A stretch of DNA of 64,000 bases, taken from positions 5,146,001 through 5,210,000 of the forward strand of contig OX597818.1 of NCBI GenBank assembly GCA_951406725.2, read 5' to 3'. The notes beneath the pieces are model-generated. The model made no database searches. It worked only from the letters and a program-made list of their open reading frames with translations, and was not told the DNA's origin. Origin of the DNA: Octopus vulgaris. Its lineage: Eukaryota. Made by a program: the position numbers and the translations under genes. Shown one piece after another: positions 1 through 63,885 of the stretch (its first letter is position 1; every line of letters starts with the position of its first letter).

Positions 1-3000
1 TTCGGATTGAAAAATCAGCTACTGGATCAAATCTTCCCGACTCACAGGAGCTGGACGTACCCCACAACCGGAATATTCCAACAGATGGCCATCCATGCAC
101 GTCATCAAATAATCAAAAGAAAAAGAAGGAAAAATGGTCTAGGGAAGATAATAAAGAAGTTCTTGCCATATATTTCTCCACAAATAAATCTAATACTGTA
201 CAAACATACTTAAACTGGAGACAGAAACACCCTGAAGCAAGACCCTACATAGACAGTAACAAACTTGCCAACGTCAGAAGAAACATTATAAAAAAAAATT
301 ACTGACTTAAGTAGAGATTGATCAAATTAGACAAGCAGTAACGGATAAAATGAACGAAGCTGCAGGTAAAGAAGATAATACAGAGGAAATAATTATAGGT
401 CAGCCCAGAGCTAATAAAAACGAAGTAAGGATTGAAAGAGTTAGTATAAGTGATAGGCAAAGTGAAATACTCCCTGAACCAATCATAAACACTAAGACAG
501 ATGAACATCAAAGTCACACAAATATTGACCCAACACAACTACATGAGATAAAAAATCAAATCATGATTGAATGGCTGAAAATTAAAGAAACCAGTATGGA
601 TGAACGCGATACACTCTCTAAAATCCGCAACTCTAACCAAAACATGAAAATAATTGGTAAAATCCGGCTTGCACTTAAGGATATAATTTCAGTTAATGAT
701 GTTGATATCACAGATCTCAACCACCTGTACTATGCATCCGCGAAAATCTCAACAATCCCTTGTGGTGAAACGATTAGAAAATGGCAACATTCCCACAAAA
801 AGCCTACTTGGCAAGAGCGTATCCAACAACAAATTAAACTATTTAGATCTGACATTGAATATCTGAAAAACCTTAAGGTTGACAAGACTACCAAACCTAC
901 AAAAACCCCAAAATTTATGAAAAAATATAATATGAAAACAATACTTGATATTGATGCCACCATAGAAACCATCAAGCAAAAGGTATCTGCTAAAGCTGCC
1001 AGCATAGCGAGGTATGAAAAACTTGTTAGATTCTTCAAGGACAACAACATGTTCAAAAATAACGCCAAAAATGTTTACAGGAAGATAGGAAAAACACCAG
1101 TTACTGTAAAGTCTGTACCATCAAAAGAAGAAGTGCAGGGATTTTGGAATAATATTTGCGCAGACGAAAAAACACACAACAAAAAGGCCCCCTGGATTGA
1201 TAGAATATCTACAGAACTGGACTCCTTAGAAGAACAAAAGTGGGAGATCGTCAAGGTAGAAGATATAAGATCTGCTCTCAGGAGGTCAAGCAAATGGAAG
1301 TCTCCAGGAAAGGATAAAATTCCTAACTTCTGGTTGAATGCCTTCCCAGAGAGCCATGAACTGCTTACAGAACTTTACAATGATGTTTTGCAACACCCTA
1401 GTAGGATGCCTCCTTGGCTAGTTAATGGGTTAACATTCCTGCTTCCAAAAAGTGAAGAAACGAATGAACCAAAAAACTATGGACCCATAACCTGCTTAAA
1501 AACTATGTATAAAACGCTAACATCTGTCCTGATGGAATATACCTATAGTTTTTTGACAGCAGCATATTCCCTAATGAACAGAAAGGATGTAAACGTGAAT
1601 CCTATGGTTGTAAAGATCAACTACTCATCAATAAGATGATCTTAGAAGATTGTCACAAACGACGCAGAAACTTATGGATAGCCTGGATAGACTATAAAAA
1701 GGCTTTTGATAGCCTACCACATAACTGGATTAAGAAATGCCTGGACATGTATAAAATAGCACCTACTCTGTGAAACGTTTTGTCTGTAAGTATGAGATCA
1801 TGGAGAACTACACTAACTTTGAACAGTGACAATGAATCTCTAAATGCTGGTGATGTAAAAATTTCATGTGGCATTTTCCAGGGTGACACGCTATCACCAA
1901 TCCTCTTTTGTTTAGCCTTAATACCTCTCTGAAAATTGCTCAATGACGCACAGTACGGATATAAAATGTTTGATAAAAATATAAATCATCTCATTTACAT
2001 GGATGATTTAAAGCCCTTTGCAAAACATGACCAACAACTCAAGGGCTTACTAGCGATTGTTAAACATTTCAGTGATGACATCAGAATGCAATTTGGCCTC
2101 ACTAAATGTGCAAAAGCTACCTTTATGAAAGGAAAAATGACAGAAACATCTAACGTTAACCTTGACCAGCAGAATGTCATAAAAGAATTAGACCCAGCGG
2201 AGAGCTACAAGTACCTAGGGGTAATTGAAGGGGACGGAATAAGGCATTCAGTGATGAAGGAAAGGATCAGGAGAGAATGTTATCGCAGAGTAAGAGCAAT
2301 ACTCAAGACAGAGCTGAATGCGAGAAACAGGATCGAAGTGATCAATGCATTAGCCATACCAGTCGTGACTTACAGTTTCAATATAGTTAACTTGTCAATT
2401 TCTGAAATATGTAATCTTGACAGAAAAATACGAACACTGTTGACAATGCATAGAATGCACCACCCTAAGACAGATACAGAACGACTTTATCTGCCAAGAA
2501 AAGAGGGAGGCCGTGGACTTTTACAACTAGCAATAACAATCAAGATTGCTACAATTGGCCTAGACACCTACCTGAAAAACTCTGAGGACTGGATGTTAAA
2601 ACTTGTCTCAAAACATGTAAACAAGAAAGCATCATACTCAGTAACAAAACAGGCAAAGGAATATCTAAGTGAATTCCGAATACAACAAATTTCGGAATTA
2701 GACATACAAGAAACAAGCACAGAAAAAGTTAAGCGCATGAAAACCCGTGCCAAAATTACTGCCTTAGATATTTTGAACGATAAATGGCAAGAAAAACCTC
2801 TCTATGGCAAATACCCAAAGAGAGCGAATAATGCAGATGTTGACAAAGCCCTGACCTATCAATGGCTAATGGCCTCTGGCTTAAAATCTGAAACAGAAGG
2901 GTTTATCATAGCAGCTCAAGATCAATGCCTACCAACAAGGAACTACCAGGCCAACATATTAAAGAACGGCAGTAGCCCAACATGTGTATGTCAACAACAA

Positions 3001-3738
3001 AATGAAACCATTGACCATGTTGTCTCCAAGTGCAGTCTTCTAGCGCATACAGAGTATCTCAACAGGCATGATAGAGCTGCACAATATATTCACTATTAAT
3101 TTGCAGAAGCCTGGCCTTGCCCCATGATAAAAACTGGTGGGAACACAAACCACATCCAGTGCTTGAAAATGACCACATCTCACTCCTCTGGAACTTCACC
3201 ATTCAAACTGACAGAAAGATAGATGCGAATAGGCCAGACATCATAGTAAAAGACTTCAGACAAAAAACATGCATCCTCATTGATATGACTGTCCCAATCG
3301 ATATAAACGTATCTGTCAAGACCTACCAGAAACTGAGCAAATATAAAGATATGGAAATAGAAATCAGCAAAATGTGGAACCTGAAGACTAAAACAATACC
3401 TGTTTTCATAGGTGCCCTGTGATTGATAGCAAAAGGGGGTGATTGTTACCTAACTCAGATACCAGGAAACCTCAAAATGGCAGAAATTCAGAAGATAGTG
3501 CTCATGGGAACTGCTCATATCCTATGCAAAATACTTTCTATGTAATCTCAAGTTTTAAAACAAACATAATTTTCAGATGTTTTTTTTTAGACATTCACTA
3601 GTACAACACTAAATACAAAACCAAATATATGGCACACTAGGCATAACACCAACATGAACTTCCAACCTGTTGTATCTTGAGGTCTCTGGGTGAGACTTGG
3701 AGCCAACTTGTACAAATATAAAGCAAAAGTCAAACATA

Positions 3739-3739
<1 letters not shown>
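1..3739 (+). mobile_element. R4/Dong-clade non-LTR retrotransposon (RT plus restriction-like endonuclease), family A, disrupted, probably begins before the window
   Basis: ORFs 350..1639, 1936..3099 and 3117..3422 carry [42 protein letters not shown], the zinc knuckle remnant ETIDHVVSKC, RHD, RPDII and KLSKY. There are several frameshifts and stops. The 3' UTR ends at CAAACATAG followed by (AAT)n. Confidence 0.93.

Positions 3740-3813
<74 letters not shown>
3740..3813 (+). repeat. (TAA)n microsatellite, tail or target of the Dong element
   Basis: Perfect AAT run between the Dong 3' end and the 555-bp element. Confidence 0.98.
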
Positions 3814-3815
<2 letters not shown>

Positions 3816-4368
3816 GCCCTGATGCAGTACCAGGCAGTGGCTCTCATGGCTTCTGATCTTAACTGATTGGAAGTGTTATCATGTACATTGTTTTGTCTTG
3901 GTATAAAAGATGGGCTACAGCAAATATTCTGCTCAATACCACAGATTTGCTTGTCAGTTGTTTGACCGTAACCAGTTGAGCATGTCCCTTAGTGGCTGAC
4001 GATATGTGCATCTCTGATCACGAGCAGAAGTAGTGGGGAGCATCATAGCCATGTGTTGAGAGGGATTCTTTGGGGTTTGAATAATTCACCTCTGGAAACA
4101 TGGGTGTTTCGTTCAACGTCCTTAAACAACCCTTATTCAGGGACCTTTTGAGCGGGATGGGTTACTCGATCTGAAGAAAATTCTAACTGGGTTCCACCTG
4201 CAAGGTCATGTGCTGTTTATCTTGATATGAGATCACCATGTCGCGCACATATGGTTGTGATGCATGTGCCCAGTGTACCCTTATCAGACGGGTAGTCATG
4301 ATGGGTATACTGGGCTTCGTATATTTTACCCCAGTGTCACTTTGATGGCATGCTCTGCTCGCTCACTC
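3814..4368 (+). mobile_element. 555-bp non-coding interspersed repeat (element X), copy 1, flanked by (TAA)n on both sides
   Basis: Runs ATGCCCTGATGCAGTACC...GCTCACTC. Near-identical copies at 4699, 37976 and 38590. No ORF and no recognisable tRNA head. Confidence 0.9.
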
Positions 4369-4410
4369 AATAATAATAATAATAATAATAATGATAATAA
4401 TAATAATAAT

Positions 4411-4599
4411 CAGTAGAATTATTACAAAAGTTTGCCCCCTCGGCACGGCCAGAATCATCAGGAAAATCAGGTAGATAGAAATTACATAGCATGGTACCGT
4501 AGGCTAGAGGCAGGAAGCCTGCTACGCATGCAAGACTCCAAGAGTTACAAAAAAACCTGTGGGATAAAGAATAAATAAAAATGAAAACGAAAATATAAA

Positions 4600-4698: not shown

Positions 4699-5055
4699 AT
4701 GCTCTGATGCAGTACCAGGCAGTGGCTCTCATTGCTTCTGATCTTAACTGATTGGAACTGTTATCATGTACATTGTTTTTTCTTGGTATAAAAGATGGGC
4801 TATAGCAAAAATTCTGCTCAATACCACAGATTTAGTTGTCAGTTGCTTGGCCTTAACCAGTTGAATATGTCCCTTAGAGTCTGGTGATATGTGCATCTCT
4901 GGTCACGAGTAGAAGTAGCGGGGGAGCATCATAGCCATGTGTTGAAAGGAATTCTTTGAGGTTTGGTCATGCGCTTTTTATCTTGATATGAGATCACCAT
5001 GTCGCGCACATATGGCTGTGATGAATGTGCCAGTTGTACCCTTATCAGGCGTAGT
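4699..5055 (+). mobile_element. Element X copy 2, internally deleted and 3'-truncated
   Basis: Same start after (TAA)n. It lacks about 125 bp matching 4080-4205 of copy 1 and the last ~70 bp. Confidence 0.88.
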
Positions 5056-5891
5056 GCTAACAGCGAGGAAAACCTCTAATTAGATATAAAAATAAACTAT
5101 GGGCTATGAAAGACACCAGGAATTGCCTTGACATACCCATGGCTGCCCCAGACTCTGCCCAACTAACAGATTTAGTAGGAATGTACCTATTATCGGAACA
5201 TGGTTTAGAACATCTTAACATAGAGGGAGGTCTATATAGGGATGACCTACTCCTTATAACTATAAACTGCACCAATAGATCATTAGAAATCATAAAGAAA
5301 ATATTATACAAATTCTTTAAGAATTTTGGTTTAGATATCTCTATAGAGAAAGAACATTCTGCGGTTAACTACCTAGATGCAAACCTAACCTTAGTAACTA
5401 ATAAAACCCACCCATTCCATAAGTTAAACGAGAACATTAATGCCCATAGCAAACGAGTACATTAATGCCCATAGCAACCATACTAGCTCAATATAGGTCA
5501 AAGAATTTCTATGTTATCCTCGGATTTCGATACTCCCAATAAACATGCCTCTTACTTTAATAGTATATGAAAAGAAGCAGGCTAGGCTATAATTCAAAAA
5601 TTTAATTCTTTAATAATTCGGACCCAGTAATAATACTAGTAATCATCCTAACGCTCAAACTAACTATAGAAGTAATAGCAATGATAATAATAAACATAAG
5701 AAAAATAAGAAAATTATAATATACGTGTAAATAAAAATAATAATTCTAATAATTATAGTAAGGATAATACCAAAAATAATTCGAATAAAAATGATAAGCA
5801 TAATTATTATATACCCACGAAGAATACACTGACAACGATGAATAATAATAATAATAATAATAATAACAACAACAACAACAACAACAACAAC

Positions 5892-5956
<65 letters not shown>

Positions 5957-6398
5957 TAAAAATAAACATAATAAGGAAATTATATGGCTAATTATACCTT
6001 ATGGGGACAAACTAAAACTAATATCATTAAAGAAATTTTTGAACATAATAAAAACACCCTTTAAAAAGAAAAAAAACATACTCGAAAATATTCTCCAATA
6101 AAATTATCAGAGTGGGATATTCTACAATGAATGTAAGTAATATCTCTATAGAGATATTCTACAACAAGGAATGTAAGTAATATCCTCAATAAGCAATTTC
6201 AAATTAAACTAATTCTATAATAATAATTTAACTAATATTAACAATAGCTACAGCAGAATTATCCCAAACAATAAACATAACGTAATTTAAATAAATGCAC
6301 ATGTAAAGAAAAATCCAGATGTAGGGTTAATAATAACTGCAACCTAGATAACGTAATGTATAAATGTATAGTAAACTCTATAAATGTATACCCACCTC

Positions 6399-6459
<61 letters not shown>

Positions 6460-7440
6460 TAATAATAACAATAATAAAGAATATATTGGATCTACAGCGA
6501 ACGAAATTATAAGAAAAATTTCCCACCATTATCAGTCTTTCAAAAATCCCAAACTAAAAACTTCGACAGGTGTATGTAAATACATATGGGAGCTAAAATC
6601 TAATAAAATAGAATACACCAATAATTGGTATATTATTTGTAGTGCAAAGTCATATAAAGTAGGTAACAAAACGTGCTTTTTATGTACAACAGAGTTTATA
6701 AAAATACACCAGTCGAGCGAGTTATTATTGAACAGTATTGGAGAGGAGTAAAATGTCAACATAAGAATAGCTTTACGTTTAATAAAATGAAAAACACATA
6801 AAATAATACCCCCTCCCCCAGCATATCATCTCATGCACATTTATGAGGAAATTAATTACTAGAAGTTAGAATAGTATTTATATAGTATTATATACGGATA
6901 TACTAAGAACTAAGAATTTATTAAACAATATTACCTTTAAATGAATAGACAGGCCACATTTATGTAACATAAATCTCAAAATCTAAAACACTTTAAAAAT
7001 CGATTAATAGCTAGCTTTACGAGTATACCCTATTTCTAGTTATTATCTCCTCTTGACTTCAACCTCTTTAATATTATTGGTTTTAGAGTAATTTTCAGAG
7101 AGTTTTATTTTAAATTAATGTATGTTATTCCCATAATACTTAGCATCTGACAGTGGAAGCGGACATTTGCACTTGAACTTGAAGGATTAAACTACATGTC
7201 GTAAAGTAATCTGTCTTTTTACTGTTTTTTAATAATCTTATTCAAATAGTTCCTAACGTAAGTAGTTGTATTTACTAATTAACCGTTATTGTACACTATT
7301 AATTCACAGTTATACTAGTTTTGACAGGGGTAAATTTTACACTAAATTATTAATTTCTATAATATCTATTTAGATATATTACAAAACTTGAAATATTTCT
7401 AATTTAATCGTTATTAATTTCCTTAGGTTAAGCATTTTTT
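5056..7440 (+). mobile_element. Penelope-like element (Naiad-like RT plus C-terminal GIY-YIG), 5'-truncated and degenerate
   Basis: RT motifs DIPMAAPDSAQLTDLVG, GLYRDDLL and NYLD. Linker CTC-x5-C-x5-C at ~6298. Endonuclease motifs VMYKC...YIGST and CFLCTTE...CQH. The 3' limit is approximate and the clade is inferred from motif pattern. Confidence 0.85.
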
Positions 7441-14344: not shown

Positions 14345-15822
14345 TATGTGGTTACTTATTATGTGCGCCCCGTGGTGGATGCGGAATTAAGTGTTAGGGC
14401 GTCCAGAATGCCATGAAGGCCAGACTGCACAGACGCTGGGGGCTGGTGGTTGGCGGCTCTGCTCTTGGAGGTTTGTGACAATATCATTGGTGCAATCAGT
14501 GCTGGTGTCTTTTGCGGAGGCAGAGTTGGTGATTACGGGTGCCGGGTGAATAAGGTGACACTCTGTCGATTATGGCCCATTTGATGCTGGGTGTTTAATT
14601 TTGGAGGTCATGGAGTCTCCACAGGAACCGAGACAAAGAAATGGAGGTCTCACTGTCCCTGCATCTAAACAAGTGCATGAGCATGTGCTGTGTCTTCCCT
14701 TGAAATCGTTGGTTGTCACACCCGTATAGTGTGTTACGAAGCCATTAGATGGTGTGAGAATGGCATTGTAGACTATGGTCCGTGAGAGGCAGGAAATCTT
14801 CGAGGACAGCTGGTAGGGTTTCGGAAGTCGCAGGTTGTGGTAAGAGGTTGTGCGTATGCATTTTTGTGTCTGTTGAAGCGTACAATTTTAGATGCGATGT
14901 TGTGTAGAAAGGTGTAGCTAATTTTGATCCTGTGGAGGTTGCAGAGCTTATAATACTTGTGGTCTCTGAGAAACTGCTTCTGAATTAACGACAAGAATCC
15001 CCTGCCTACGTTAGTAGGTAGGGGCTTCCTACATCTAAGTTGGAGGAGGGTTGAACCAGAGTTTTCTTCTTCCTGATCCTCTTGGGGAGTGAGGAGGGTT
15101 TTCGGGTCCACCATATCTGTACGCTTCTCGATGAACCCGCTCCTTACCAAAGCATCATTGTAGATGATCTCTATATCGGCCAAGAGCTTGGAGACAAAGT
15201 TTCTAATTATAGCGGAAGATAGTTCGAGCTCTTGTGGATATATACGGCTTCCCCATAAGGTTTCTTGCACAGGTAGTACTTACCCACGTTCAGGTCTAAG
15301 GTTGGTGGTAACCGTTATGGACAGGCCGAATTCTTTGAATATTTTTAAAGTACTTCATGAACTTGGTGCGAGCGTTCAAATGGCTTGAGATTGTGTCCGT
15401 CGTCCCTATAAAGGGCCGACTCATGTGGATGTGTGCGTGTCTTGAGGATGTCAAAGATGAATAACCCGACAATTTCGGAGATCTCATCCCCGCCGTAGCT
15501 CCTCATACAGACATAGAACAATAGGTATTTTTTTTTTTTTTTTGTAGAAGTCGTGGTGGACAAGGATTGATTTTCTAGGGTCCATGATGATTCTGATACG
15601 GTGATCACTTATGCTAGTAAAGCGTTCCGCAAAATTTAAGGCCTTCAGGAGGAGGGATTTTGATGTAGAAGGCTAGTTGTCGACAATTTCAAACTGTGTG
15701 AATCTACAGGCTGATTTATTCTCGATACCACGGAACCAGTCTATCACCGCTGCGTTGGAATCTCATTAAGTCAATCCCTAACCCTTCTGATGTCGGAGTT
15801 GATGGTATTAAGAATACGCTTA
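14345..15822 (-). mobile_element. Penelope-like element (Naiad-like), 5'-truncated and degenerate
   Basis: MRSYGGDEISEIVGLF, ALYRDDG, TNVGRGFL..IKISY, CDFRNPTSCP and a GIY-YIG remnant IVYNA...HYTG. Confidence 0.85.
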
Positions 15823-15881
15823 CTAATAATATGTATGTATGTATGTATGTACGTATGTATGTATGTATGTATGTATATATG

Positions 15882-15956
<75 letters not shown>

Positions 15957-15980
15957 TTATCTATCTATCCATCTATCTAG

Positions 15981-16131
15981 AAGCGCAGGCGTGGCTGTGT
16001 GGTATGAACCACATGGTTCCGGGTTCAGTCCCACTGCGTGTTACTTTGGGCTAGTGTCTTCTTCTATAGCCTCAGACACACCAAAGACTTGTGCGTGGAT
16101 TTGGTTGACAGAAACTGAAAGAAGCTCGTCA
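15981..16131 (+). mobile_element. tRNA-derived SINE family A, 5' half
   Basis: Matches 60608-60770. B-box-like GGTTCAGTCCC. Ends in (TA)n/(CA)n. Confidence 0.85.
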
Positions 16132-16140
16132 TATACATAC

Positions 16141-16191
<51 letters not shown>

Positions 16192-16199
16192 CGCACACA

Positions 16200-16248
<49 letters not shown>

Positions 16249-16254
16249 TATTAT

Positions 16255-18790
16255 TAAAAAGTAAGGGATTACCCTCAAACGATTACCAATTTGCTCTCAG
16301 GTATTCAAAATTTTATTCAACAGTTAACGTATAAATCCAATAAAGTTCTTATAGGATAAGAAATTTGAGGGATATTCCATCGGATAATTTTGAATATATT
16401 TCATTAACCATATAGGTTTCCTGGAGTATAAATATTGACAATATTGAAAATATAGATCACTCCAAAATAGCAATAGCATTAGCTTTAATTCTATAATTGT
16501 ATACCACCTTTTAAGACCAACACATTTCAATTGCACCGATTAGTAATTGTTGCGATTTCAACGCTACTATAACATGGTGCAGTCTCTACAGGGCTTTAAC
16601 TTGTTATATCTCGGTATTGTTGTTTACTGATTTTCTTTTATAAACTCTGCGTTGTATAATTTAGAACCATCCGTTAAGTCAGACCCAAACAATTTGTATT
16701 TCAAGTGGATAATCCTTTTCAGTCCTTCATTTCAAAACCTTGAATAATTCAAATGGTAATTATTCATTTATACTTCGCAAATGTGAATTTCCTTATGTGC
16801 AAGCATCTCCAAGCTTGCTCTATAGAATTTATTACAGTACCCTTGGATGTGAAAATCCTGTAAGTTGCTTCAAAACATAGGTCATATCTCTTGGTTCCAG
16901 GTCTGTATGGTTTTGTAGTACAAATCAATTCCCATTTAATCGAGCTTGTTACTGTCCTTCAAAGACCAGATTAATTTGCTAAGACTCGTTTGAGACCATG
17001 TATTTTTGTCTTTAAATGAACTCAAATGATTTGCCAGTCTCCTCTTGAAAATTAATGATGTCCCACCGATGTAAAAGAATTCCTTACTCCCAGATGTTAT
17101 TATATATCTATATATTACAATTTTAGTTTTAAACTTATTTTCCATATAACAGTATTCCAATTTAGAACAATTGCATAGATAATCTTTTATATTTCCCTCA
17201 GATTTAGTTTCAATTTGATCATTCATTGTAGAATTGAATGCATTTCCACCAAGTTCCTTATTACTATTTACTCCTATATATAATTCTGTCTTTGTTCTAT
17301 TTCTAGCTGAATTTTTATTCGATTTGACGTTATTATTTATGTTAAATTGGGTTGTTTCCCTTTCCAGGACATTTAATTTCTTAGCATTCCCTACTACATG
17401 AGTTTCTTTATTCCGTTTTACGTTATTATGCTTCGAATTTGTTACGCTATTCTGATCGTAATAACGTTTTTGAAATTTCGATATTATTTTAGCATTGTGT
17501 GCTGCTATAACTTGTGCATTATTACGGCTAAGACAATAACCCGATCTAATGTAATGTTGATTACAAATTTTGTAATATTTGTGGTTTATCGCAAAATATT
17601 TTTGAATTGCTATATTAAGTAATTTGGAAATATTGCAATTGACCTGCTTACCAAATAGAACGATTAACCATAAGGAATACTTCTAGTTGAGATCATAATT
17701 TTGATATTTACACCCATTTTTCGAAGGAGTAAGTATTCTCTGATTTCAATCTATTTTAATGTTAGCGTTTATTTTAGTTTATTTTTATATTTAAATCCTT
17801 TAGCCGATTTTATATTAAAAGAACGTGAGATTTTATTGCAGAATACTACATGCTCATTTCCATTAACAGTACGAAAATTTTTAATCCGGTTATCAACAAT
17901 CTTATGATTTTTCCTTTTGTTATAAATATAATTTTTCATTTGTTTATTTTCACTATTAAAATCACCTGCTCTTGTTATTTTATCAACTTGAATATTTAAT
18001 TTTAAGACTCCACTCCTACATTTGTTATAAGTAGATTTGTTTATAGTACTAGAGTTTAGGTCTGTAATATTAAAATTCCTATTTAAATCTGATTTGATAT
18101 TTGACTAATTAAACTGAATTTTATTGTTATACCCCACTTTCTGAAGTGCCAAGTTATAGTAGTCTTCATAACGTTTGAAAGTACTCTCCATTGGCTGATA
18201 ATTTACTTATTCTAGACGAAATGTTCTTTATTAGTGAGTTTGTTACTGATTTGGGAAGATTACTTCCAATATTTACATTAAGTTTATGACAGGGTTTATA
18301 AATTCCTTTTTTAATCTTCAACATAACATCGAAGAAGTTAACAGAGTTATGTTCATCCGCTATCGTTTTTGATAGACCAATATATTTACAGAAATAAAAA
18401 CAAATCTTTCTATATATTTCCAAAATTCTACTAGATCTGTTTACAATTGTAAGAAGCGCACCATCGTTATATAAACCTCCTATAATTTCATGGAATACCC
18501 AATTTAGAGAAAACAGTATATAAATTCCTACCAACTCAGTAAGCTGCGCCGAACACGTAGACCCCATAGTAATGTCAAACATATTCGGTCTATCCTTCCT
18601 AATCCAATATTTATTCTCAAATCTAGTCGCCAAAATAACATCTATTTCACCCGTAATTATTTCCGTTTTTTTTGCAATCATTTTTACAGTAGGGTTGCAA
18701 TTGCAACGATTTCTAATCGATTCAATTGAAGCATGTGTTGGTCTTAAAAGTTATGGAATCAAAGGTAATGTTATTGCTATTATGGAGTAA
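16255..18790 (-). mobile_element. Penelope-like element (Naiad-like), 5'-truncated and degenerate
   Basis: FDITMGSTCSAQLTELVG, GLYNDGAL, CNC-x5-C and VIYRY...FYIGGT...RRLANH. Confidence 0.88.
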
Positions 18791-30239: not shown

Positions 30240-30326
<87 letters not shown>

Positions 30327-30327
30327 C

Positions 30328-30678
30328 TCAAAATAAGCAACAAGAATGACTCCGGTAATTTGGTACGATCGTTTCGTACTACATCATTCTATTAAATGTT
30401 GTATTACAACAGATTTAAAATGCCGAGTACTCATCAGCCAATTATAGAGGTTTTGAGTACTTGACATTTGATGAGTACTCGTCATTTTAAATCTGTTGTA
30501 ATGCAACATTTAATAGAATGATGTAGTACGAAACGATCGTACCAAATTACCGGAGTCATTCTTGTTGCTTATTTTGATTATAATCACCCCACGGGTTTCT
30601 ATGGATAACACCATACGAAATTCTGGTGCATCTAAATTAAGTACCATATTCATTTGAATCTAAATTTTTGCTGAACTT
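30328..30678. mobile_element. Fold-back insertion in (TA)n with 109-bp inverted arms carrying hammerheads (PLE pLTR-like)
   Basis: 30328-30436 versus 30469-30577 shows two mismatches and a 32-bp spacer. The + arm continues ~100 bp to a (TA)n run. Confidence 0.85.
30360..30441 (-). ncRNA. Minimal type I hammerhead ribozyme with an extended stem II
   Basis: The minus strand reads TTGG-CTGATGA-GTACT...AGTAC-GAAA-CGATCG-TA^CCAA. Canonical core and palindromic stem III (ACGATCGT). Confidence 0.9.
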
Positions 30679-37407: not shown

Positions 37408-37934
37408 TATGAACACCACGCTGAAGCTGCTTCTACATGAACTATCTGAGAAAGCTGTTGAAAATCATTTGGCAAGACAAGGTCCCACATACGGAGGTCC
37501 TCTCTCAAGCTGATCTGTTAGATATTTACACATTGCTGAGGAGAGCGCAAGTCAGGTGGGCAAGTCACGCTTCCCCAAAGACTTTTACAGCGAACTGGCA
37601 GAAGGAAAGCGCATACAAGCTTGACAGAAAATAATGCTTCAGAGATACGTCAACACTGACACTTGGGAAATTCAAGCACAGGACCACCCAGCCTAGCGTA
37701 ACTGAAGCAACAGAAGTACCACCGCCTACGCACAGGATTGCAGGAGTACAAAGAAAGCGTGAGCTGCACAAGTCCAGAGCTAATTCCTTGCCTTCATTGC
37801 CTGCAGACCATTAGTTTCCGACCTGTAGCAGAGCCTTCCTAGTACGCGTCTGACTACCTGGCCACAGCGTGAGCTGTCTTCTCCCATGTGTTCTTGGTTT
37901 TCGTCAACAGCGACAGACGAACATTATCATTATT
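37408..37934 (+). mobile_element. RTE LINE 3' fragment
   Basis: YLRKLLKIIWQDKVPHTEVL...QVRWASH, followed by a CAT/TAT tail. Confidence 0.8.
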
Positions 37935-37975
37935 AAGTGAGAGAGCAACGGGTGAACATTATCTTTATCGTTACT

Positions 37976-38530
37976 GAGTGAGGGAGCAATGCATGCCATC
38001 AAAGTGACACCTGGGTACAAATTTACAAAGCCCGATATACCCACATGACTACCCGTCTGATAAGAGTACACTAGGTACATAAATCACAATCGTAAGTGCG
38101 CGACATAGTGATCGCATATCAAGATGAAAATCACATGGCCTTGCAGGTGGGACCCAGTTAGGATTTTATTCTGGTCGAGTAACCCATCCTGCTCAAAAGG
38201 TCCCTGAATAAGGTTGTTTAAGGATGTTGAACGAAACACCTATGTTTCCAGAGGTGAATTATTCAAACGCCAAAGAATCCCTCTCAACACATTGCTACGA
38301 TGCTCCCCCACTGCTTCTGCTCGTGATCAGAGATGCACATATCGTCAGCCACTAAGGGACATGCTCAACTGGTTAAGGTCAAACAACTGACAAGCAAATC
38401 TGTGGTATTGAGCAGAATATTTGCTGTAGCCCATCTTTTATACCAAGACAAAACAATGTACATGATAAAACTTCCAAACAGTTAATATCAGAAGCTATGA
38501 GAGCCACTGTCTGGTACTGCATCAGGACAC
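37976..38530 (-). mobile_element. Element X copy 3
   Basis: Full-length reverse complement of 3814..4368, more diverged than copy 4. Confidence 0.9.
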
Positions 38531-38589
<59 letters not shown>

Positions 38590-39145
38590 GAGTGAGAGAG
38601 CAGTTCATGCCATCAAAGTCATACTGGGGTAAAATATACGAAGCCCAATATACCCATCATGACTACCCGTCTGATAAGGGTACACCAGGCACATGCATCA
38701 CAACCATATGTGCGCGACATGGTGATCTCATATCAAGAAAAACAGCACATGACCTTGCAGGTAGGGCTCAGTTAGAATTTTCTTCGTGTTGAGTAGCCCA
38801 TCCCGCTCAAAAGGTCCCTGAATAAGGGTTGTTTAAGGATGTTGAAAGAACCACCTATGTTTCCAGAGGTGAATTATTCAAACCCCAAAGAATCCCTCTC
38901 AACACATGGCTATGATGCTCCCCCACTACTTCTGCTCGTGATCAGAGATGCACATATCGTCAGCCACTAAGGGACATGCTCAACTGGTTAAGGTCAAACA
39001 ACTGACAAACAAATCTGTGGTATTGAGCAGAATATTTGCTGTAGCCCATCTTTTATACCAAGACAAAACAATGTACATGATAACACTTCCAATCAGTTAC
39101 GATCAGAAGCCATGAGAGCCACTGCCTGGTACTGCATCAGGGCAT
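38590..39145 (-). mobile_element. Element X copy 4, flanked by (TTA)n on both sides
   Basis: Full-length reverse complement of 3814..4368. Confidence 0.92.
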
Positions 39146-41730
<2,585 letters not shown>

Positions 41731-42108
41731 AAATTTGCTCACATAATATCTACACATGCAACACTGTATTATGGTTGTGATTGTGCAAGTAATAACTTAC
41801 AATTGCATAACACTTTCGAATACAATATCATGTAATATTACTTTACAAACTTGATTGTAGTTTATTACTCAACAAATATTTCCGATTCAATGACGAAAAC
41901 AATACTGGAGGTCTTATAGGACGTAAAATAGTTGATAATCGTTAAAAAAAGAACACCCGAGTTACAACCCTAAATTCGATACAAACTATTCCTACACAAT
42001 GTTAACGATGTTCAGCAAAATTGTGATTTTCTCAAAGCTGGAAGCTATATTTGCATGCTCAAATTTCGGAAGAAAATATTATAACATTCGAAATATACTT
42101 GTGTGTGT

Positions 42109-53307: not shown

Positions 53308-53751
53308 TATATATATATATACACACACATATGTACACATCAACACGCACATATATACCTGGATATATAATGGCACACAGATTAGTGATAATTTAATTAG
53401 AGATTGGACAGGGTAGTGCCAAACTACATAAAAATTTTACAGGTAAGGTTAAACTAAACGGAAAATATCCGGAAGGCACGGGCGATACACATACATCTCT
53501 GTCCATTCACACCTATACCTACGCTCAAAAACCTACCCATATATCCAAGTATATGAGCGTATACAAATATACAGAAACGTATACACACACACAGATACAC
53601 ACACAGACATACATACACCCAATGGTATATAGTTACAAATACGCAGACCCATATAGAAAGGCATGCTCATATACAGACACATAGAGAGATATGAATGTGT
53701 ATATATCCACATAAATGCGCACATACGCACATACATACAAAGAAATATATA

Positions 53752-55317
53752 CAGTATATCACAGAAGTATGTACACCCCGAAAAAATGTCTGTAAAATTG
53801 CCATTTCTTTCATAATATTGAAGGAGATATAACGAAATTTATACTGAATAATATATATTATGCATGCAAACATTACACAAATCTGGAACACAAAACAATA
53901 CACGTTTTCAAAGATATGAATGAAATATTAATTTACAAACGTTACAAAAATATGTACACCCTATATTCAGTATTTTATCCCCCACTTTTGTTTTACCAAA
54001 TTCAATTCTAATAAATTATTTCTTATGGCATTTTAGCACCAGCCATCGTTATTGCATCTGCAGGAATTCTGATTTTTTACCGTAGTGAAAATCTTCATTG
54101 GGATAAATGGCATCAAAAGGAAAAGAATTGTCTGAAGATTTGAAGAAAATTAGTTTTAATTTGCACAAGAATGGTTTAGGATACAAGTTAATTAGCAAAC
54201 GAATACATATTAGCGTAAACACAGTTGCCACAGTAATTCAGAAGTACAAAGCTACTGGAAGACTAAGCAATAAATAATATCGTCCATATCGTCCTTCTGT
54301 TTTAACTGCGCATGATATTCGCCACAGCCAATGTTGCGTGATAGACGACAAGCGTCGTACCGCTTCGTCTTTGGCTCAAGTGTCTTCTGTTAATGGAAAG
54401 TGTGTATCCGTCCAGACAGTTCGTTAGCCGAAGTTTGAACCAGTGTGGTCTTCATGGACGCATTTCTTGTAGGAAGCCTATCCTCACTACCAGGCATAAA
54501 TCAAGTCATTTTTATTTTGCCGAAACCTATGTTGGTTAGGTGAAGGAGTTTGGAAATAAAATTCTTTTTTTTTCTGACGAGACTAAAATCAACTTATTTG
54601 GGTCATACGATATTAAACGAGTATGGCGACGACCAGGTAAGGATAGTTGCGACAAATGCACCGTGCCTACTGCGAAACATAATGGCGGAAGAGTTATGCT
54701 TTGGGGATGCATGAATGCGGCTGGTATAGGAGGACTCACATTTATTGAGAGAAAAATGGATTCAAAGCTTTATTGTGACATATTGCAGAAAACAATGTTG
54801 AAAAGCATCAAGGAACTAGGAAGACATTCCATGTTCCAACATAATGATGACCCTAGACACCCTTCAAAGATGACGAATAAGTTTTTATCAAATAAAAAGT
54901 TAAAGGTATTGCCTTGGCCTACCATGTCACCTGATTTAAACTCAATAGAATCTATGTGGAGCATCTGGAAAATGAAGATTGAGGATGAAAAAAATGTAAC
55001 ACAGTTGAAAAACATCATTCATGATGAATGGAGGTCAGAAAACTTAATGCAGCCATTGAAAACTAGGGCGCTCGCAACAAGTATTGAATATAGCAAATAA
55101 TCCTTTAGGGCGTACATATTTTTGCATAGTTTTAAATTTGATATTTCGTTCATATCTTTGAAAAAGTGTATTGTTTTGTTTTCCAAATTTGTATAATGTT
55201 TGAATGTATAATCTATTTTCTTGAGTATAAATTCCGTTTGATGTTCTTCGATATTATCAGGGTAATGGCAATTTTACTGCAAATTTTTAGGGGTGAACAT
55301 ACTTCTATGAGATACTG
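53752..55317 (+). mobile_element. Tc1 transposon with ~210-bp IR/DR-type TIRs and TA target duplication
   Basis: TA|CAGTAT...ATACTG|TA. TIRs at 53752-53962 and 55106-55317, with the internal direct repeat A(G/A)TATGTACACCC. Confidence 0.93.
54107..55100 (+). pseudogene. Tc1 transposase (DD34E type), disrupted
   Basis: MASKGKELSEDLK..GYKLISK, FSDETK, VMLWGCM, FQHNDDPRH and SPDLNSIE. Stops and frameshifts in the N-terminal half. Confidence 0.9.
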
Positions 55318-55404
55318 TATATATAAATACACACACGCACACACACATATGTATATGTATATATATGCACACGTACACACACAGGCACACGCACATATGC
55401 ATAT

Positions 55405-61299: not shown

Positions 61300-63885
61300 A
61301 ACAAAAAAGGAAATTTTAAACTCATGTTGGATCAGGTGAAATGTGAAAAACTATAAACTATGAAAGCAACAACAATAAAAATATATAATATTTCATGAGG
61401 GTGAAACCAAGAAAAGAATGGTAGGAAAGTAGACACCATTAAAATCAATAGCAATAAGAAAAGTTTTGGAATATAATCTATAGAAGAAATTAGCGGAGCG
61501 GGAAGAAGGGAAAAGCGGGATGGTTAGGAGGGGCACGAAAACATTTTCTGGGCTCAAGGGTCGATTCACGTGGGAAGATGTTCGAACGCTCCACAGTGGC
61601 TACTATAAACTGTAGAAAGGGGCTGTTGGGAGGGGAAATTACATGTGGGTGGGGGAGGGGGACTAGACTATCTGAGCTTTGTGAAGGTGCTGCGGTTTTT
61701 ATGCGGACCCCGTATCAACTCTTCGTTTCTTTTGTTAATAAAGCGATACCGACTTTTTAGTATCTCGATGTGGACAAATGCTTATTAAGTATCTTGAAGG
61801 AGTAGACATGATTATGATATCTCCATTTAAAATGGGAAGCAGTGGTTACTATGCAGTGGAAGATATTATTATTGGTGGCTACAGTACCCCTATAAACTAC
61901 AATCTCCCTGAGGGACTGGTTGTCCAGTGGACACGTAGTAGGGTCTAGCATAGGCGAGGTTTTATTTGGTGCTCCCAGTTTTGCGGGAATCATTGTGAGA
62001 GTTGCCGTGTCGTTGTGTGGCTGCTGCCCGTTAGCCTTCCCCGTGTGCTGGGCCTGGTTGAGGTGAAGAGGTGTATCTGGATTTTTAGTTAGCTCTGAAT
62101 CTCTCCTGGAGTTAAATATTCTGTTATTTAGGGTATCTATAGTTTGCGATACATTAGGTGTGGTGGAGTAGGATAACTTTATATTGCGTGTATGAAAGAT
62201 TTTGTGGTATTCATGTATGTGGAGAAAGTATCTGTCTAGTGCTCTAAAGAAAATGCCGGGTATATCTGAAGCAATGTTCGATGCAAGAGGAGGGTTAAAC
62301 CATATTATACTTAAACCATATTTTGCTTACCAGCTTGGTTAGTATTCTGTGCTGTGGGCCAGGCCAGATATCTTAACAACACTTTGCTTACTGCCATCGG
62401 GTTTTCTCCAACGCTTAGAGTGTTGCTCTACGATTTTATTATGGTCTGTGTAGTGTAGACGTTCTAATTTATTTCTGTGGGGACGTAAAGTCGTGCTACC
62501 TAGTGTGTAGTCTAGCCTATTTAACTCAGAGTTATGTGGTGATGGGAGGTGATCGAGGGTGGGAGCGGGTGCATTCGCCACTGGTATGTATCCAACACTG
62601 GCCAATGCTTCAATGAAGTAATGGGTGCTGTGTGAGAAAATGTCGCTATTCGCGGATAACCTCGATATTCTGGCGGAGAATATTTTACGATTGATCTTAT
62701 TGCCATCCTGTGGTGGTTAGAGCATCTATTAAAATACTGGAGGTTTTCATTAGGCTTGTGATAAGAGCTATACAAATCCGTTTTGATTTTCAACGTTACA
62801 TCTAGGAAGTTTGCTATCCTATCGATACTGTCTGTTGTAACGGAGAGCCGAAAGTTACAGAAAAGGCTTCAAATCCTCTTGCTGATTCGAGTTCTACTTT
62901 ACTATATTTGTAGAATGTGAACAAAGCATTATATCTATAAAGACCACCTCCTATATCTGGTAAGACGGACTTTAATTGGTGCAATAGAAACAATCCAACC
63001 AAATCGGTGACTTGGGCTGAGTCACAAGCATCCACGCTTATGTCAAACTTCCCTACCTAATCCTTATGAAACCATAGTTGGTTGTCGAATGTAATTAAGG
63101 TCCTCTTAGTCGCTAAGTTAATATCTGCATCCCTCTTAGATAAAGACGTTTTATTTATGGCAAAGGTCAGGGACTTATGTAGGACTATATGGTTAACAGC
63201 GTAATTTAAATTATTGTCAATCTGTAGAAACTTAGGGTTTGTTTTGAGAGGCAACTTTCTAAACCAGAGTATGACGTCCGTGGTGTCCGACCAAAGGTCA
63301 AAAAGTTCAAGTGCCCTGAGATTTAGGGAGCATTTTGTCTATAATGTTTTAAATTCTGCGGTAGATTGACAAGAATATCTGGTTTATGGTCTTTTAATGT
63401 AATTCTAAATTGTTTGGGTACCTAAGGCTCCGTTCTGTCTTGATTATTTAGGTACTCCTCTATTTTGCGTCCTTCCTGATTGATGTTGTCCAAGTTAGAA
63501 GAATGTGTGGATTTGTATCTCTTAAATAACTCCTTCCTTATATGATCCCTATAATGGTCAATACTTTAGTTGTATAAGTTGCTGGGCTTATCCGGTTGCA
63601 CGTGTACTCCATCACATTTCTTGAGTTCCTTGATGAGATCTCGAAGCTTCCAAAGGTGAATATTCTTGCGTAGCGGGTTTTACTTAATCTTCAAGTTGCG
63701 TATCATAACTATCACATTTTCTTCGAAAGCATCGAGTGGTGTGTTCTAGATTTTAATTCCTGTTCAAGTTGGCGTCTGGTTTCGTTCTTTTTTTATTACT
63801 CTTGTTACGATTTGTTTGATGTTCGAAGTGGAACGCCTTCCATCTCATACGACTGATAAAAGATTTGGTCATCTGATGTAAACAT
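61300..63885 (-). mobile_element. Penelope-like element (Naiad-like), long and degenerate
   Basis: FISRMRWKA N-terminus, DSAQVTDLVGLFLL, GLYRYNAL, WFNPP, IKLSYSTTPN and TCPLDN..VVYRG..RYHNH. Confidence 0.88.

What the first reader, a model, noticed from the sequence alone, without database searches (positions are those of the whole stretch)
3814..4368. 555-bp non-coding element X that always starts at (TAA)n: candidate Dong-mobilised, microsatellite-targeted parasite without a tRNA head
Seen: four copies in 64 kb (3814, 4699, 37976, 38590). All start at the same point after (TAA)n and share polarity relative to the repeat, which is also the polarity of the Dong elements. The three complete copies share one 3' end. 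There is no ORF, TIR or A/B box, but there are hairpins (3849-3874) and a TATAAAA at 3902. Known: Dong (R4 clade) inserts into TAA repeats, and R2-type RLE elements mobilise non-autonomous partners. Inference: X is a non-autonomous RNA that uses a Dong RT/endonuclease, and its exact 5' end suggests an internal promoter or a self-processing RNA. I could not match its 3' end to any Dong UTR in this window, and I cannot tell whether it is already catalogued.
Basis: partly seen in the sequence, partly recalled or inferred. Interest (0 to 1): 0.75.

Follow-up and report, generated by a model that had tools for sequence, protein, structure and literature searches.

The report
Headless retroposon riding Dong in microsatellites
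A 556-base non-coding repeat with an estimated 56,000 copies sits almost only in TAA microsatellites, always facing the same way as Dong retrotransposons, and likely spreads by borrowing their copying enzyme, although it has no tRNA head and shares no recognisable end with any partner found.

Summary
X is real, young and abundant: 23 elements in 1.15 Mb sampled (about 56,000 copies, 35,000-84,000). It has a fixed 3' end and frequent 5' truncation (10 of 22 start at +1), so 'always starts at the same point' fails genome-wide, but the orientation is right. 155 of 165 3' ends run into (AAT)n and none into (ATT)n, as for Dong (55 of 66, none ATT). Where X's start is fused to other sequence, the joint lies at or beside +1, so the RNA probably has a real 5' end there. 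No tRNA head, HDV or hammerhead fold, ORF, TIR or Rfam match was found. No autonomous element carrying X's head or tail was found among 11 Dong 3'-UTR types, but a published octopus library lists 51 Dong families. A 3' hairpin with a C-GGGTA-G loop resembles hairpins in 3 of 11 Dong UTR types (post hoc). Verdict: a probably Dong-mobilised non-autonomous retroposon, a new variant beside EhSINE1 and R2 SIDEs; how its 5' end is made is open. Repbase/Dfam could not be checked. The scan's notes held no earlier report of it.

The parts
3814..4368 (+). X copy 1, full length (555 bp; majority length 556)
3740..3813 (+). (AAT)n target array upstream of copy 1, directly after a Dong 3' UTR
4369..4410 (+). 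(AAT)n array downstream of copy 1
4268..4315 (+). 3' hairpin of X (X 456-503) with pentaloop GGGTA at 4290-4294; candidate protein-binding site
   Evidence: folding z -3.9 for X 426-505; common variants keep pairs; loop motif in 3 of 11 Dong UTR types
3849..3874 (+).
3916..4084 (+). X 103-271, also found inside an older MITE family at 76-91% identity
4699..5051 (+). X copy 2: 5' end intact, 124-nt internal deletion, 3' end lost
37976..38530 (-). X copy 3, full length, about 7% from the majority sequence
38590..39145 (-). X copy 4, full length, in tandem upstream of copy 3
38531..38589 (-). (AAT)n spacer between copies 4 and 3
39146..39321 (-). (AAT)n array between a Dong 3' end and copy 4
1933..3739 (+). 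3' part of a decayed Dong/R4-type LINE (type A) with its 3' UTR, same polarity as X
39322..41749 (-). 3' part of a decayed Dong/R4-type LINE (type B), same polarity as copies 3 and 4

Best explanation
X is a high-copy non-coding repeat with a fixed 3' end, frequent 5' truncation and (AAT)n on both sides, and it is likely a non-autonomous retroposon copied by the protein of Dong (R4 clade) LINEs. Inferred mechanism: an RNA of about 556 nt with a real 5' end at +1 (to -3) binds a Dong protein, probably through the 3' hairpin whose loop resembles that of several Dong 3' UTRs; the endonuclease nicks the (TTA)n strand of a microsatellite and reverse transcription is primed at X's 3' boundary; early stops give truncated copies, and jumps at the end of the template give the tandem repeats of the 5' end. 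Each insertion leaves TAA arrays that serve as the next target, hence the X-X and Dong-X chains. For the 5' end my first choice is an internal promoter in the first ~70 nt (about 0.45), then self-cleavage by an unrecognised fold (0.3), then trimming or an atypical Pol III unit (0.25). Odds by step: retroposition 0.97, Dong as helper 0.85, hairpin as the handle 0.5.
For: Shown: fixed 3' and variable 5' ends (21 of 22 vs 10 of 22). 3' flank 155 AAT, 3 AAG, 3 AAC, 4 other, 0 ATT of 165; Dong types A-E and G 55 AAT, 3 AAC, 2 GAT, 1 AAG, 1 ACT, 4 other, 0 ATT of 66; the one RTE end has the opposite (ATT) polarity; AAT/ATT arrays are 0.7% of 560 kb sampled. One copy sits in an AAG array on both sides in the same phase (L082), so flanks are target-derived. 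Tandem repeats of the 5' end occur in X (L003, L011, L013, L030; about 14 units of 68 nt in L233; also at a truncated end, L284) and in Dong (L064, L032). Of 30 examined among 55 non-TAA starts, 20 are joints from +1 back into X without a TAA spacer, 3 follow a Dong 3' piece directly (2 of them one local duplication) and 1 follows a tRNA-Glu; a second tRNA-Glu joint was found. One insertion is an X head on a Dong 3' UTR (L319). Two copies on different contigs are identical (L002, L025). Hairpin: the three common variants in its stem (17, 33 and 15 copies of about 93) keep pairing; cells kept:broken 105:62 against 20:51, 6:16, 29:94 and 71:169 in four other predicted stems; loop motif in 3 of 11 Dong UTR types, at most 2.1% of shuffles each, 1.1% for X's last 120 nt. 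Literature: Dong targets (TAA)n in insects, molluscs and cnidarians (PMC7998251, PMC3812793, passages).
Against: No Dong 3' UTR shares X's tail: 88 UTR rows in 11 types, two hits, both explained otherwise. No LINE ORF joined to X's tail in 40 targeted stretches, in a genome-wide pattern (3 hits vs 2 in the control) or in the loose ends shown for four runs (only the top 24 rows shown). No LINE behind X's head in 20 targeted stretches or in the Dong A and B 5' regions. The loop motif was chosen after looking, is absent from 8 of 11 types including the abundant A and B, and occurs in 5.5% of whole-X shuffles. Only 3 double-sided changes in the stem, and a C>A change in 27% of depth in organism E breaks a pair. 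The tRNA-Glu fusions are not Dong-specific: 35 of 38 dispersed copies of that tRNA end are followed by some repeat, mostly other SINEs. X-Dong chimeras could be DNA deletions between neighbours (L319 has 6-nt microhomology). 28 of 123 full 5' ends were not classed as AAT-flanked. No promoter or ribozyme was identified.
Confidence: 0.8

Rival explanations
1. X is an ordinary bipartite derivative (SIDE/RIME type): the 5' and 3' ends of one Dong family that is rare, extinct or not sampled here.
For: 51 Dong-R4 consensus families are listed for Octopus vulgaris (PMC13282606 supplement) and only 11 3'-UTR types and two 5' regions were seen here; 23 of 45 ungapped identities to the type E UTR around the loop (no control); R2 SIDEs diverge up to 25-27% from their partners (PMC3414825, section 9).
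Against: No such element; no HDV-like fold at the head, which SIDEs keep; PMC5786205 (passages) lists bipartite elements only for RTE, Ingi, Vingi and R2.
Confidence: 0.3
2. X's 5' end is cut out of read-through transcripts by a self-cleaving RNA of unrecognised fold (or by nuclease trimming up to the first hairpin), not made by a promoter.
For: Silkworm Dong self-cleaves at its 5' end (PMC3774820, passages); joints fall at +1 to -3; 0 of 71 recognisable starts have a G at -1 as a copied cap might leave (cap copying is recalled from L1 and unknown for Dong).
Against: No HDV-like fold with a strict descriptor (0 hits) and only 2 weak hits with a loose one that also gave 0-21 chance hits on Dong sequences; no hammerhead arrangement; no Rfam hit; 5' stems show no constraint.
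Confidence: 0.3
3. X is a conventional Pol III SINE whose tRNA head has decayed beyond recognition.
For: A gapped alignment of X 3-75 to the genome's tRNA-Lys starts at the tRNA's first base; internal T4 runs occur in other mollusc SINEs (PMC4758252, passage).
Against: That alignment is not significant (z 1.4-1.8; other tRNAs and other X windows score as well); ARAGORN at a relaxed threshold and a tRNA HMM find nothing while a control head scores E 5e-07; no B box; the family is young, so a working promoter should be visible.
Confidence: 0.1
4. X is mobilised by a different LINE (RTE, CR1/L2, Tx1, Hero) that happens to prefer AAT arrays in the same orientation.
For: No shared tail with Dong; the genome holds many active LINE clades (PMC13282606, Table 1).
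Against: Same target spectrum, polarity and 5' duplications as Dong; the single RTE end examined faces the other way.
Confidence: 0.12

Closest known systems
EhSINE1 of Entamoeba histolytica (partner EhLINE1, restriction-like endonuclease; R4-clade placement recalled)
   Same: 500-600 bp, non-coding, no identified small-RNA precursor, mobilised by a LINE with a restriction-like endonuclease (PMC2996970, PMC1635306; passages).
   Different: EhSINE1 shares about 70 bp of 3' end with its LINE, makes TSDs and is not targeted to a repeat; X has no shared tail found, inserts in (AAT)n and is far more numerous.
R2 SIDEs and R2/R1 hybrid SIDEs of Drosophila (PMC3414825; abstract, sections 8 and 9)
   Same: Site-specific non-autonomous passengers of a restriction-like-endonuclease LINE, no Pol III head, defined 5' end, template jumps onto tRNA.
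   Different: SIDEs are an HDV-like ribozyme plus the partner's 3' UTR, confined to rDNA and rare; X shows neither part by sequence or descriptor and is spread genome-wide.
Dong (R4 clade) LINEs
   Same: (TAA)n target, polarity, alternative AAG/AAC targets, 5' tandem duplications, chains of insertions, a similar pentaloop hairpin in some families.
   Different: X encodes nothing and aligns to none of the 11 3'-UTR types or two 5' regions seen.
Octopus tRNA-SINEs OK, OR1, OR2 (Ohshima and Okada 1994; seen only as cited in PMC4758252, not read)
   Same: Short, high-copy retroposons of octopus.
   Different: They are tRNA-derived (title of that paper) and OR2 is a CORE SINE; X has no tRNA head.

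Membership tests
Non-autonomous non-LTR retroposon | Fixed 3' end with variable 5' truncation | tested here: met
   21 of 22 vs 10 of 22
Non-autonomous non-LTR retroposon | No ORF, no TIR, no LTR-type flanking of an internal region | tested here: met
Non-autonomous non-LTR retroposon | Transcribed as a discrete RNA | tested here: inconclusive
   Indirect only: joints at +1. No raw reads available.
Dong-mobilised element | Insertion in (TAA)n with Dong polarity | tested here: met
   155 of 165, 0 ATT; Dong 55 of 66, 0 ATT
Dong-mobilised element | 3' tail shared with a partner LINE | tested here: not met
   only 11 UTR types sampled, hairpin likeness only
Dong-mobilised element | Dong protein primes reverse transcription on X RNA | not testable with these tools
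   needs an in vitro or cell assay
tRNA/5S/7SL/snRNA-derived SINE | Small-RNA-derived head with A and B boxes | tested here: not met
tRNA/5S/7SL/snRNA-derived SINE | Known central domain (CORE, V, Deu/Nin, Ceph, Meta) | not testable with these tools
   No library of these domains at hand; X's profile did not hit the abundant SINEs in 1.15 Mb
SIDE / bipartite LINE derivative | 5' part homologous to the partner's 5' end | tested here: inconclusive
   No match to Dong A or B 5' regions, none in 20 targeted loci; other families' 5' ends not seen
SIDE / bipartite LINE derivative | HDV-like ribozyme at the 5' end | tested here: not met
   descriptors can miss deviant folds (PMC3774820 section 16)
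Retrozyme / Penelope-derived element | Hammerhead ribozyme in terminal repeats | tested here: not met
   No Rfam hammerhead hit; no terminal repeats
MITE or solo LTR | TIRs, or paired copies around an internal region; no end polarity | tested here: not met

The most novel reading that the evidence does not exclude
X is a retroposon of independent origin, with neither a small-RNA head nor a LINE-derived tail, that captured Dong proteins by mimicking a 3' hairpin and cuts its own 5' end out of (UAA)n read-through transcripts with a self-cleaving RNA of a class not yet described.
Probability: 0.12. Interest if true: 0.85.

Novelty: new variant of a known kind. Interest (0 to 1): 0.5.

Why it matters
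Passengers of restriction-like-endonuclease LINEs are known from a few rare or untargeted cases (R2 SIDEs, EhSINEs); ten literature searches listed none for Dong. X would be a very successful one, about 1% of the genome by my estimate and recently active. It offers a compact 556-nt substrate to learn what an R4/Dong protein recognises, which bears on trans-acting RNA-templated insertion at a microsatellite, and it poses a clean question about how a headless retroposon gets its 5' end. If it proves to be a plain bipartite Dong derivative already in a repeat library, the interest falls to about 0.3.

Tried and rejected
Rfam on the window region and on six loci: only low-complexity hits. DNA search with X 1-87 returned nothing because common words are skipped: uninformative. 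Sequencing runs: no RNA holder listed on record (20 runs, 9 studies, 5 coded organisms, all contigs), so expression, strand and ends could not be read. Apparent partners rejected: L030 (a diverged truncated X after a deleted Dong); L108 (truncated X after a Dong UTR); L172 (X tail after a Dong ORF, but the filler is copied from nearby DNA and the Dong UTR resumes 1 kb on, so a repair insertion). The second family sharing X 103-271 is a MITE, not a partner. A likeness of the type E UTR to X 33-110 (4 of 200 shuffles, best of 16 tests) was dropped as chance. tRNA-Lys likeness not significant. The idea that tRNA-Glu fusions mark an R2-like enzyme was dropped. Reverse orientation of X rejected by the truncation pattern. 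One search used wrong coordinates and is void. Look-ups in the scan's notes by sequence and by words found nothing; by place, eight notes on other elements. Rows dropped: MITE loci L141-L170 and duplicates before the counts; one edge artefact (L007); L187 and L190 are cut by stretch ends. The loci behind searches are enriched for young copies; only one search is unselected.

Full report
Observation. Each follows (TAA)n at the same base, and two follow a Dong/R4-type LINE end in the same orientation. The genome is 2.8 Gb in 227 contigs; its repeats look like those of an octopus (inference).

Abundance and age. The first 24 nt occur exactly 5,478 times and a 3' 24-mer 8,569 times, reversed controls 0. 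115 stretches of 10 kb at arbitrary positions hold 23 elements, which gives about 56,000 copies (Poisson range 35,000-84,000, wider if clustering is counted). These unselected copies are 78-98% identical to the majority sequence; among the best hits two on different contigs are identical. Contigs of runs from four coded organisms carry the 3' part in one piece.

Ends. 21 of 22 unselected elements reach the 3' end; 10 of 22 have the 5' end. Over all loci, 155 of 165 distinct 3' ends run into AAT, 3 into AAG, 3 into AAC, 4 other, none into ATT; 95 of 123 full 5' ends were classed as AAT-flanked. Dong ends of six types give 55 AAT, 7 other triplets, 4 unclassed and no ATT of 66; the one RTE end gives ATT. 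A copy lying in an AAG array on both sides (L082) shows that the flanks come from the target.

The 5' end is probably a real RNA end. A uniform junction after (TAA)n could arise simply by annealing of upstream repeat, as described for R2 elements that cleave upstream (PMC3774820, abstract and passages). I therefore pulled the starts not preceded by a TAA-like 5-mer: 55 of 5,478. Of 30 examined, 20 are joints from +1 into an internal position of X without a spacer, three follow a Dong 3' piece directly and one follows a whole tRNA-Glu; a second tRNA-Glu joint came. Some repeats resume at -1 or -3. Tandem 5' repeats also occur at a truncated X end and at Dong ends, so they are a habit of the enzyme. 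The tRNA-Glu joints include the gene's 3' trailer and are common before other repeats too (35 of 38 dispersed copies, one of them a simple repeat; 0 of 7 cluster genes), so they support an RNA intermediate but not a particular helper.

What the head is not. No Rfam family, no tRNA by ARAGORN or by a profile of this genome's tRNAs, with a working positive control, no A or B box, three internal T4 runs, no hammerhead or HDV-like fold. Silkworm Dong does self-cleave at its 5' end (PMC3774820, passages), and such ribozymes can deviate from the standard pattern (section 16), so a negative descriptor search is weak. My descriptor also found no convincing fold at the Dong ends I had, which may be truncated ends.

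Search for the partner. 88 Dong 3'-UTR rows fall into 11 types; none shares X's tail. A genome-wide pattern for a Dong ORF end close to X's loop gave 3 hits against 2 in the control. 40 stretches chosen for X's tail without an exact head showed truncated or variant X, never a LINE ORF joined on; 20 chosen for the head without an exact tail showed X again, with one X-head/Dong-tail chimera. A published O. vulgaris library lists 51 Dong-R4 families, 5 recently active (PMC13282606, parts 1-2 of 3 and a supplement search); its sequences are on Zenodo and could not be seen, so a partner, or X itself as an unclassified SINE, may be there.

The 3' hairpin. X 456-503 is the best-folding part (z -3.9 for 426-505). 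Its three common variants keep pairing, unlike variants in four other predicted stems, but these are few events, double-sided changes number three and one variant in organism E breaks a pair. Its loop, C-GGGTA-G, 74 nt before the end, fits a motif seen 44-58 nt before the end in Dong types C, E and G (3 of 11). The motif was chosen after inspection, so this is a lead only.

Mechanism. Shown: polarity, target spectrum, truncation, joints at +1, youth, absence of coding or small-RNA features. Inferred: Dong protein as helper (0.85), the hairpin as its handle (0.5), an internal promoter as source of the 5' end (0.45, against self-cleavage 0.3 and trimming or Pol III 0.25).

Comparison and verdict. 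X works like EhSINE1 (PMC2996970 and PMC1635306, passages) and the R2 SIDEs (PMC3414825, abstract and sections 8-9) but fails their membership tests: no shared tail, no HDV-like head. PMC5786205 (passages) names only RTE, Ingi, Vingi and R2 as sources of bipartite elements. Ten searches listed no description of X or of a Dong passenger; PMC8967140 and PMC4758252 (passages) mention only tRNA-type octopus SINEs. Subscription journals and repeat databases were not searchable. New variant of a known kind; interest 0.5.

Noticed in passing
G000:C10:81.83-81.97 Mb (L395-L400) and dispersed loci L371-L394, L401-L414: A cluster of 33 tRNA-Glu genes, and about 68 dispersed copies of the same tRNA end; 35 of 38 dispersed copies examined carry a gene-like 3' trailer fused directly to a repeat (mostly SINE heads or SINE 3' pieces), against 0 of 7 cluster genes. 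Looks like a family of pre-tRNA/retroposon chimeras, akin to U6-L1 chimeras (recalled).
   Followed up: partly
L141-L170; window 3916-4084: An older MITE of about 430-490 bp with terminal inverted repeats carries X 103-271 at 76-91% identity; at least 367 exact hits of a junction motif. Direction of capture unknown.
   Followed up: partly
L233 (G000:C1:30148100-30149000); L345, L350, L363: Up to about 14 head-to-tail repeats of X's first 68 nt, and shorter 18-23 nt series, in front of a full copy: reiterative copying at the 5' end.
   Followed up: partly
L017, L020, L025, L028, L075, L326 (flanks of X): A frequent element made of a tRNA-like head, an internal (AAT)n and a 3' part with hammerhead-like core motifs (by eye); X often inserts into its internal microsatellite.
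   Followed up: no
L054, L060, L064, L067, L070 and window 1-310: Dong type A has a 5' region of more than 1 kb before its ORF, with internal microsatellites and clustered but not identical 5' ends.
   Followed up: partly
window 37921-37975: X copy 3 abuts the tail of an oppositely oriented RTE and its last ~15 nt plus flank are imperfectly duplicated.
   Followed up: no
window 4490-4575, 5052-6750, 14773-18750, 61757-62326: A Dong type G 3' UTR remnant between X copies 1 and 2, and several decayed Penelope-like RT/GIY-YIG fragments (named by eye from the translations).
   Followed up: no
window 30323-30582; 54540-55324: A 260-bp palindrome, and a Tc1/mariner-like transposase fragment between 219-bp inverted repeats (53745-53963, 55106-55324).
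   Followed up: no
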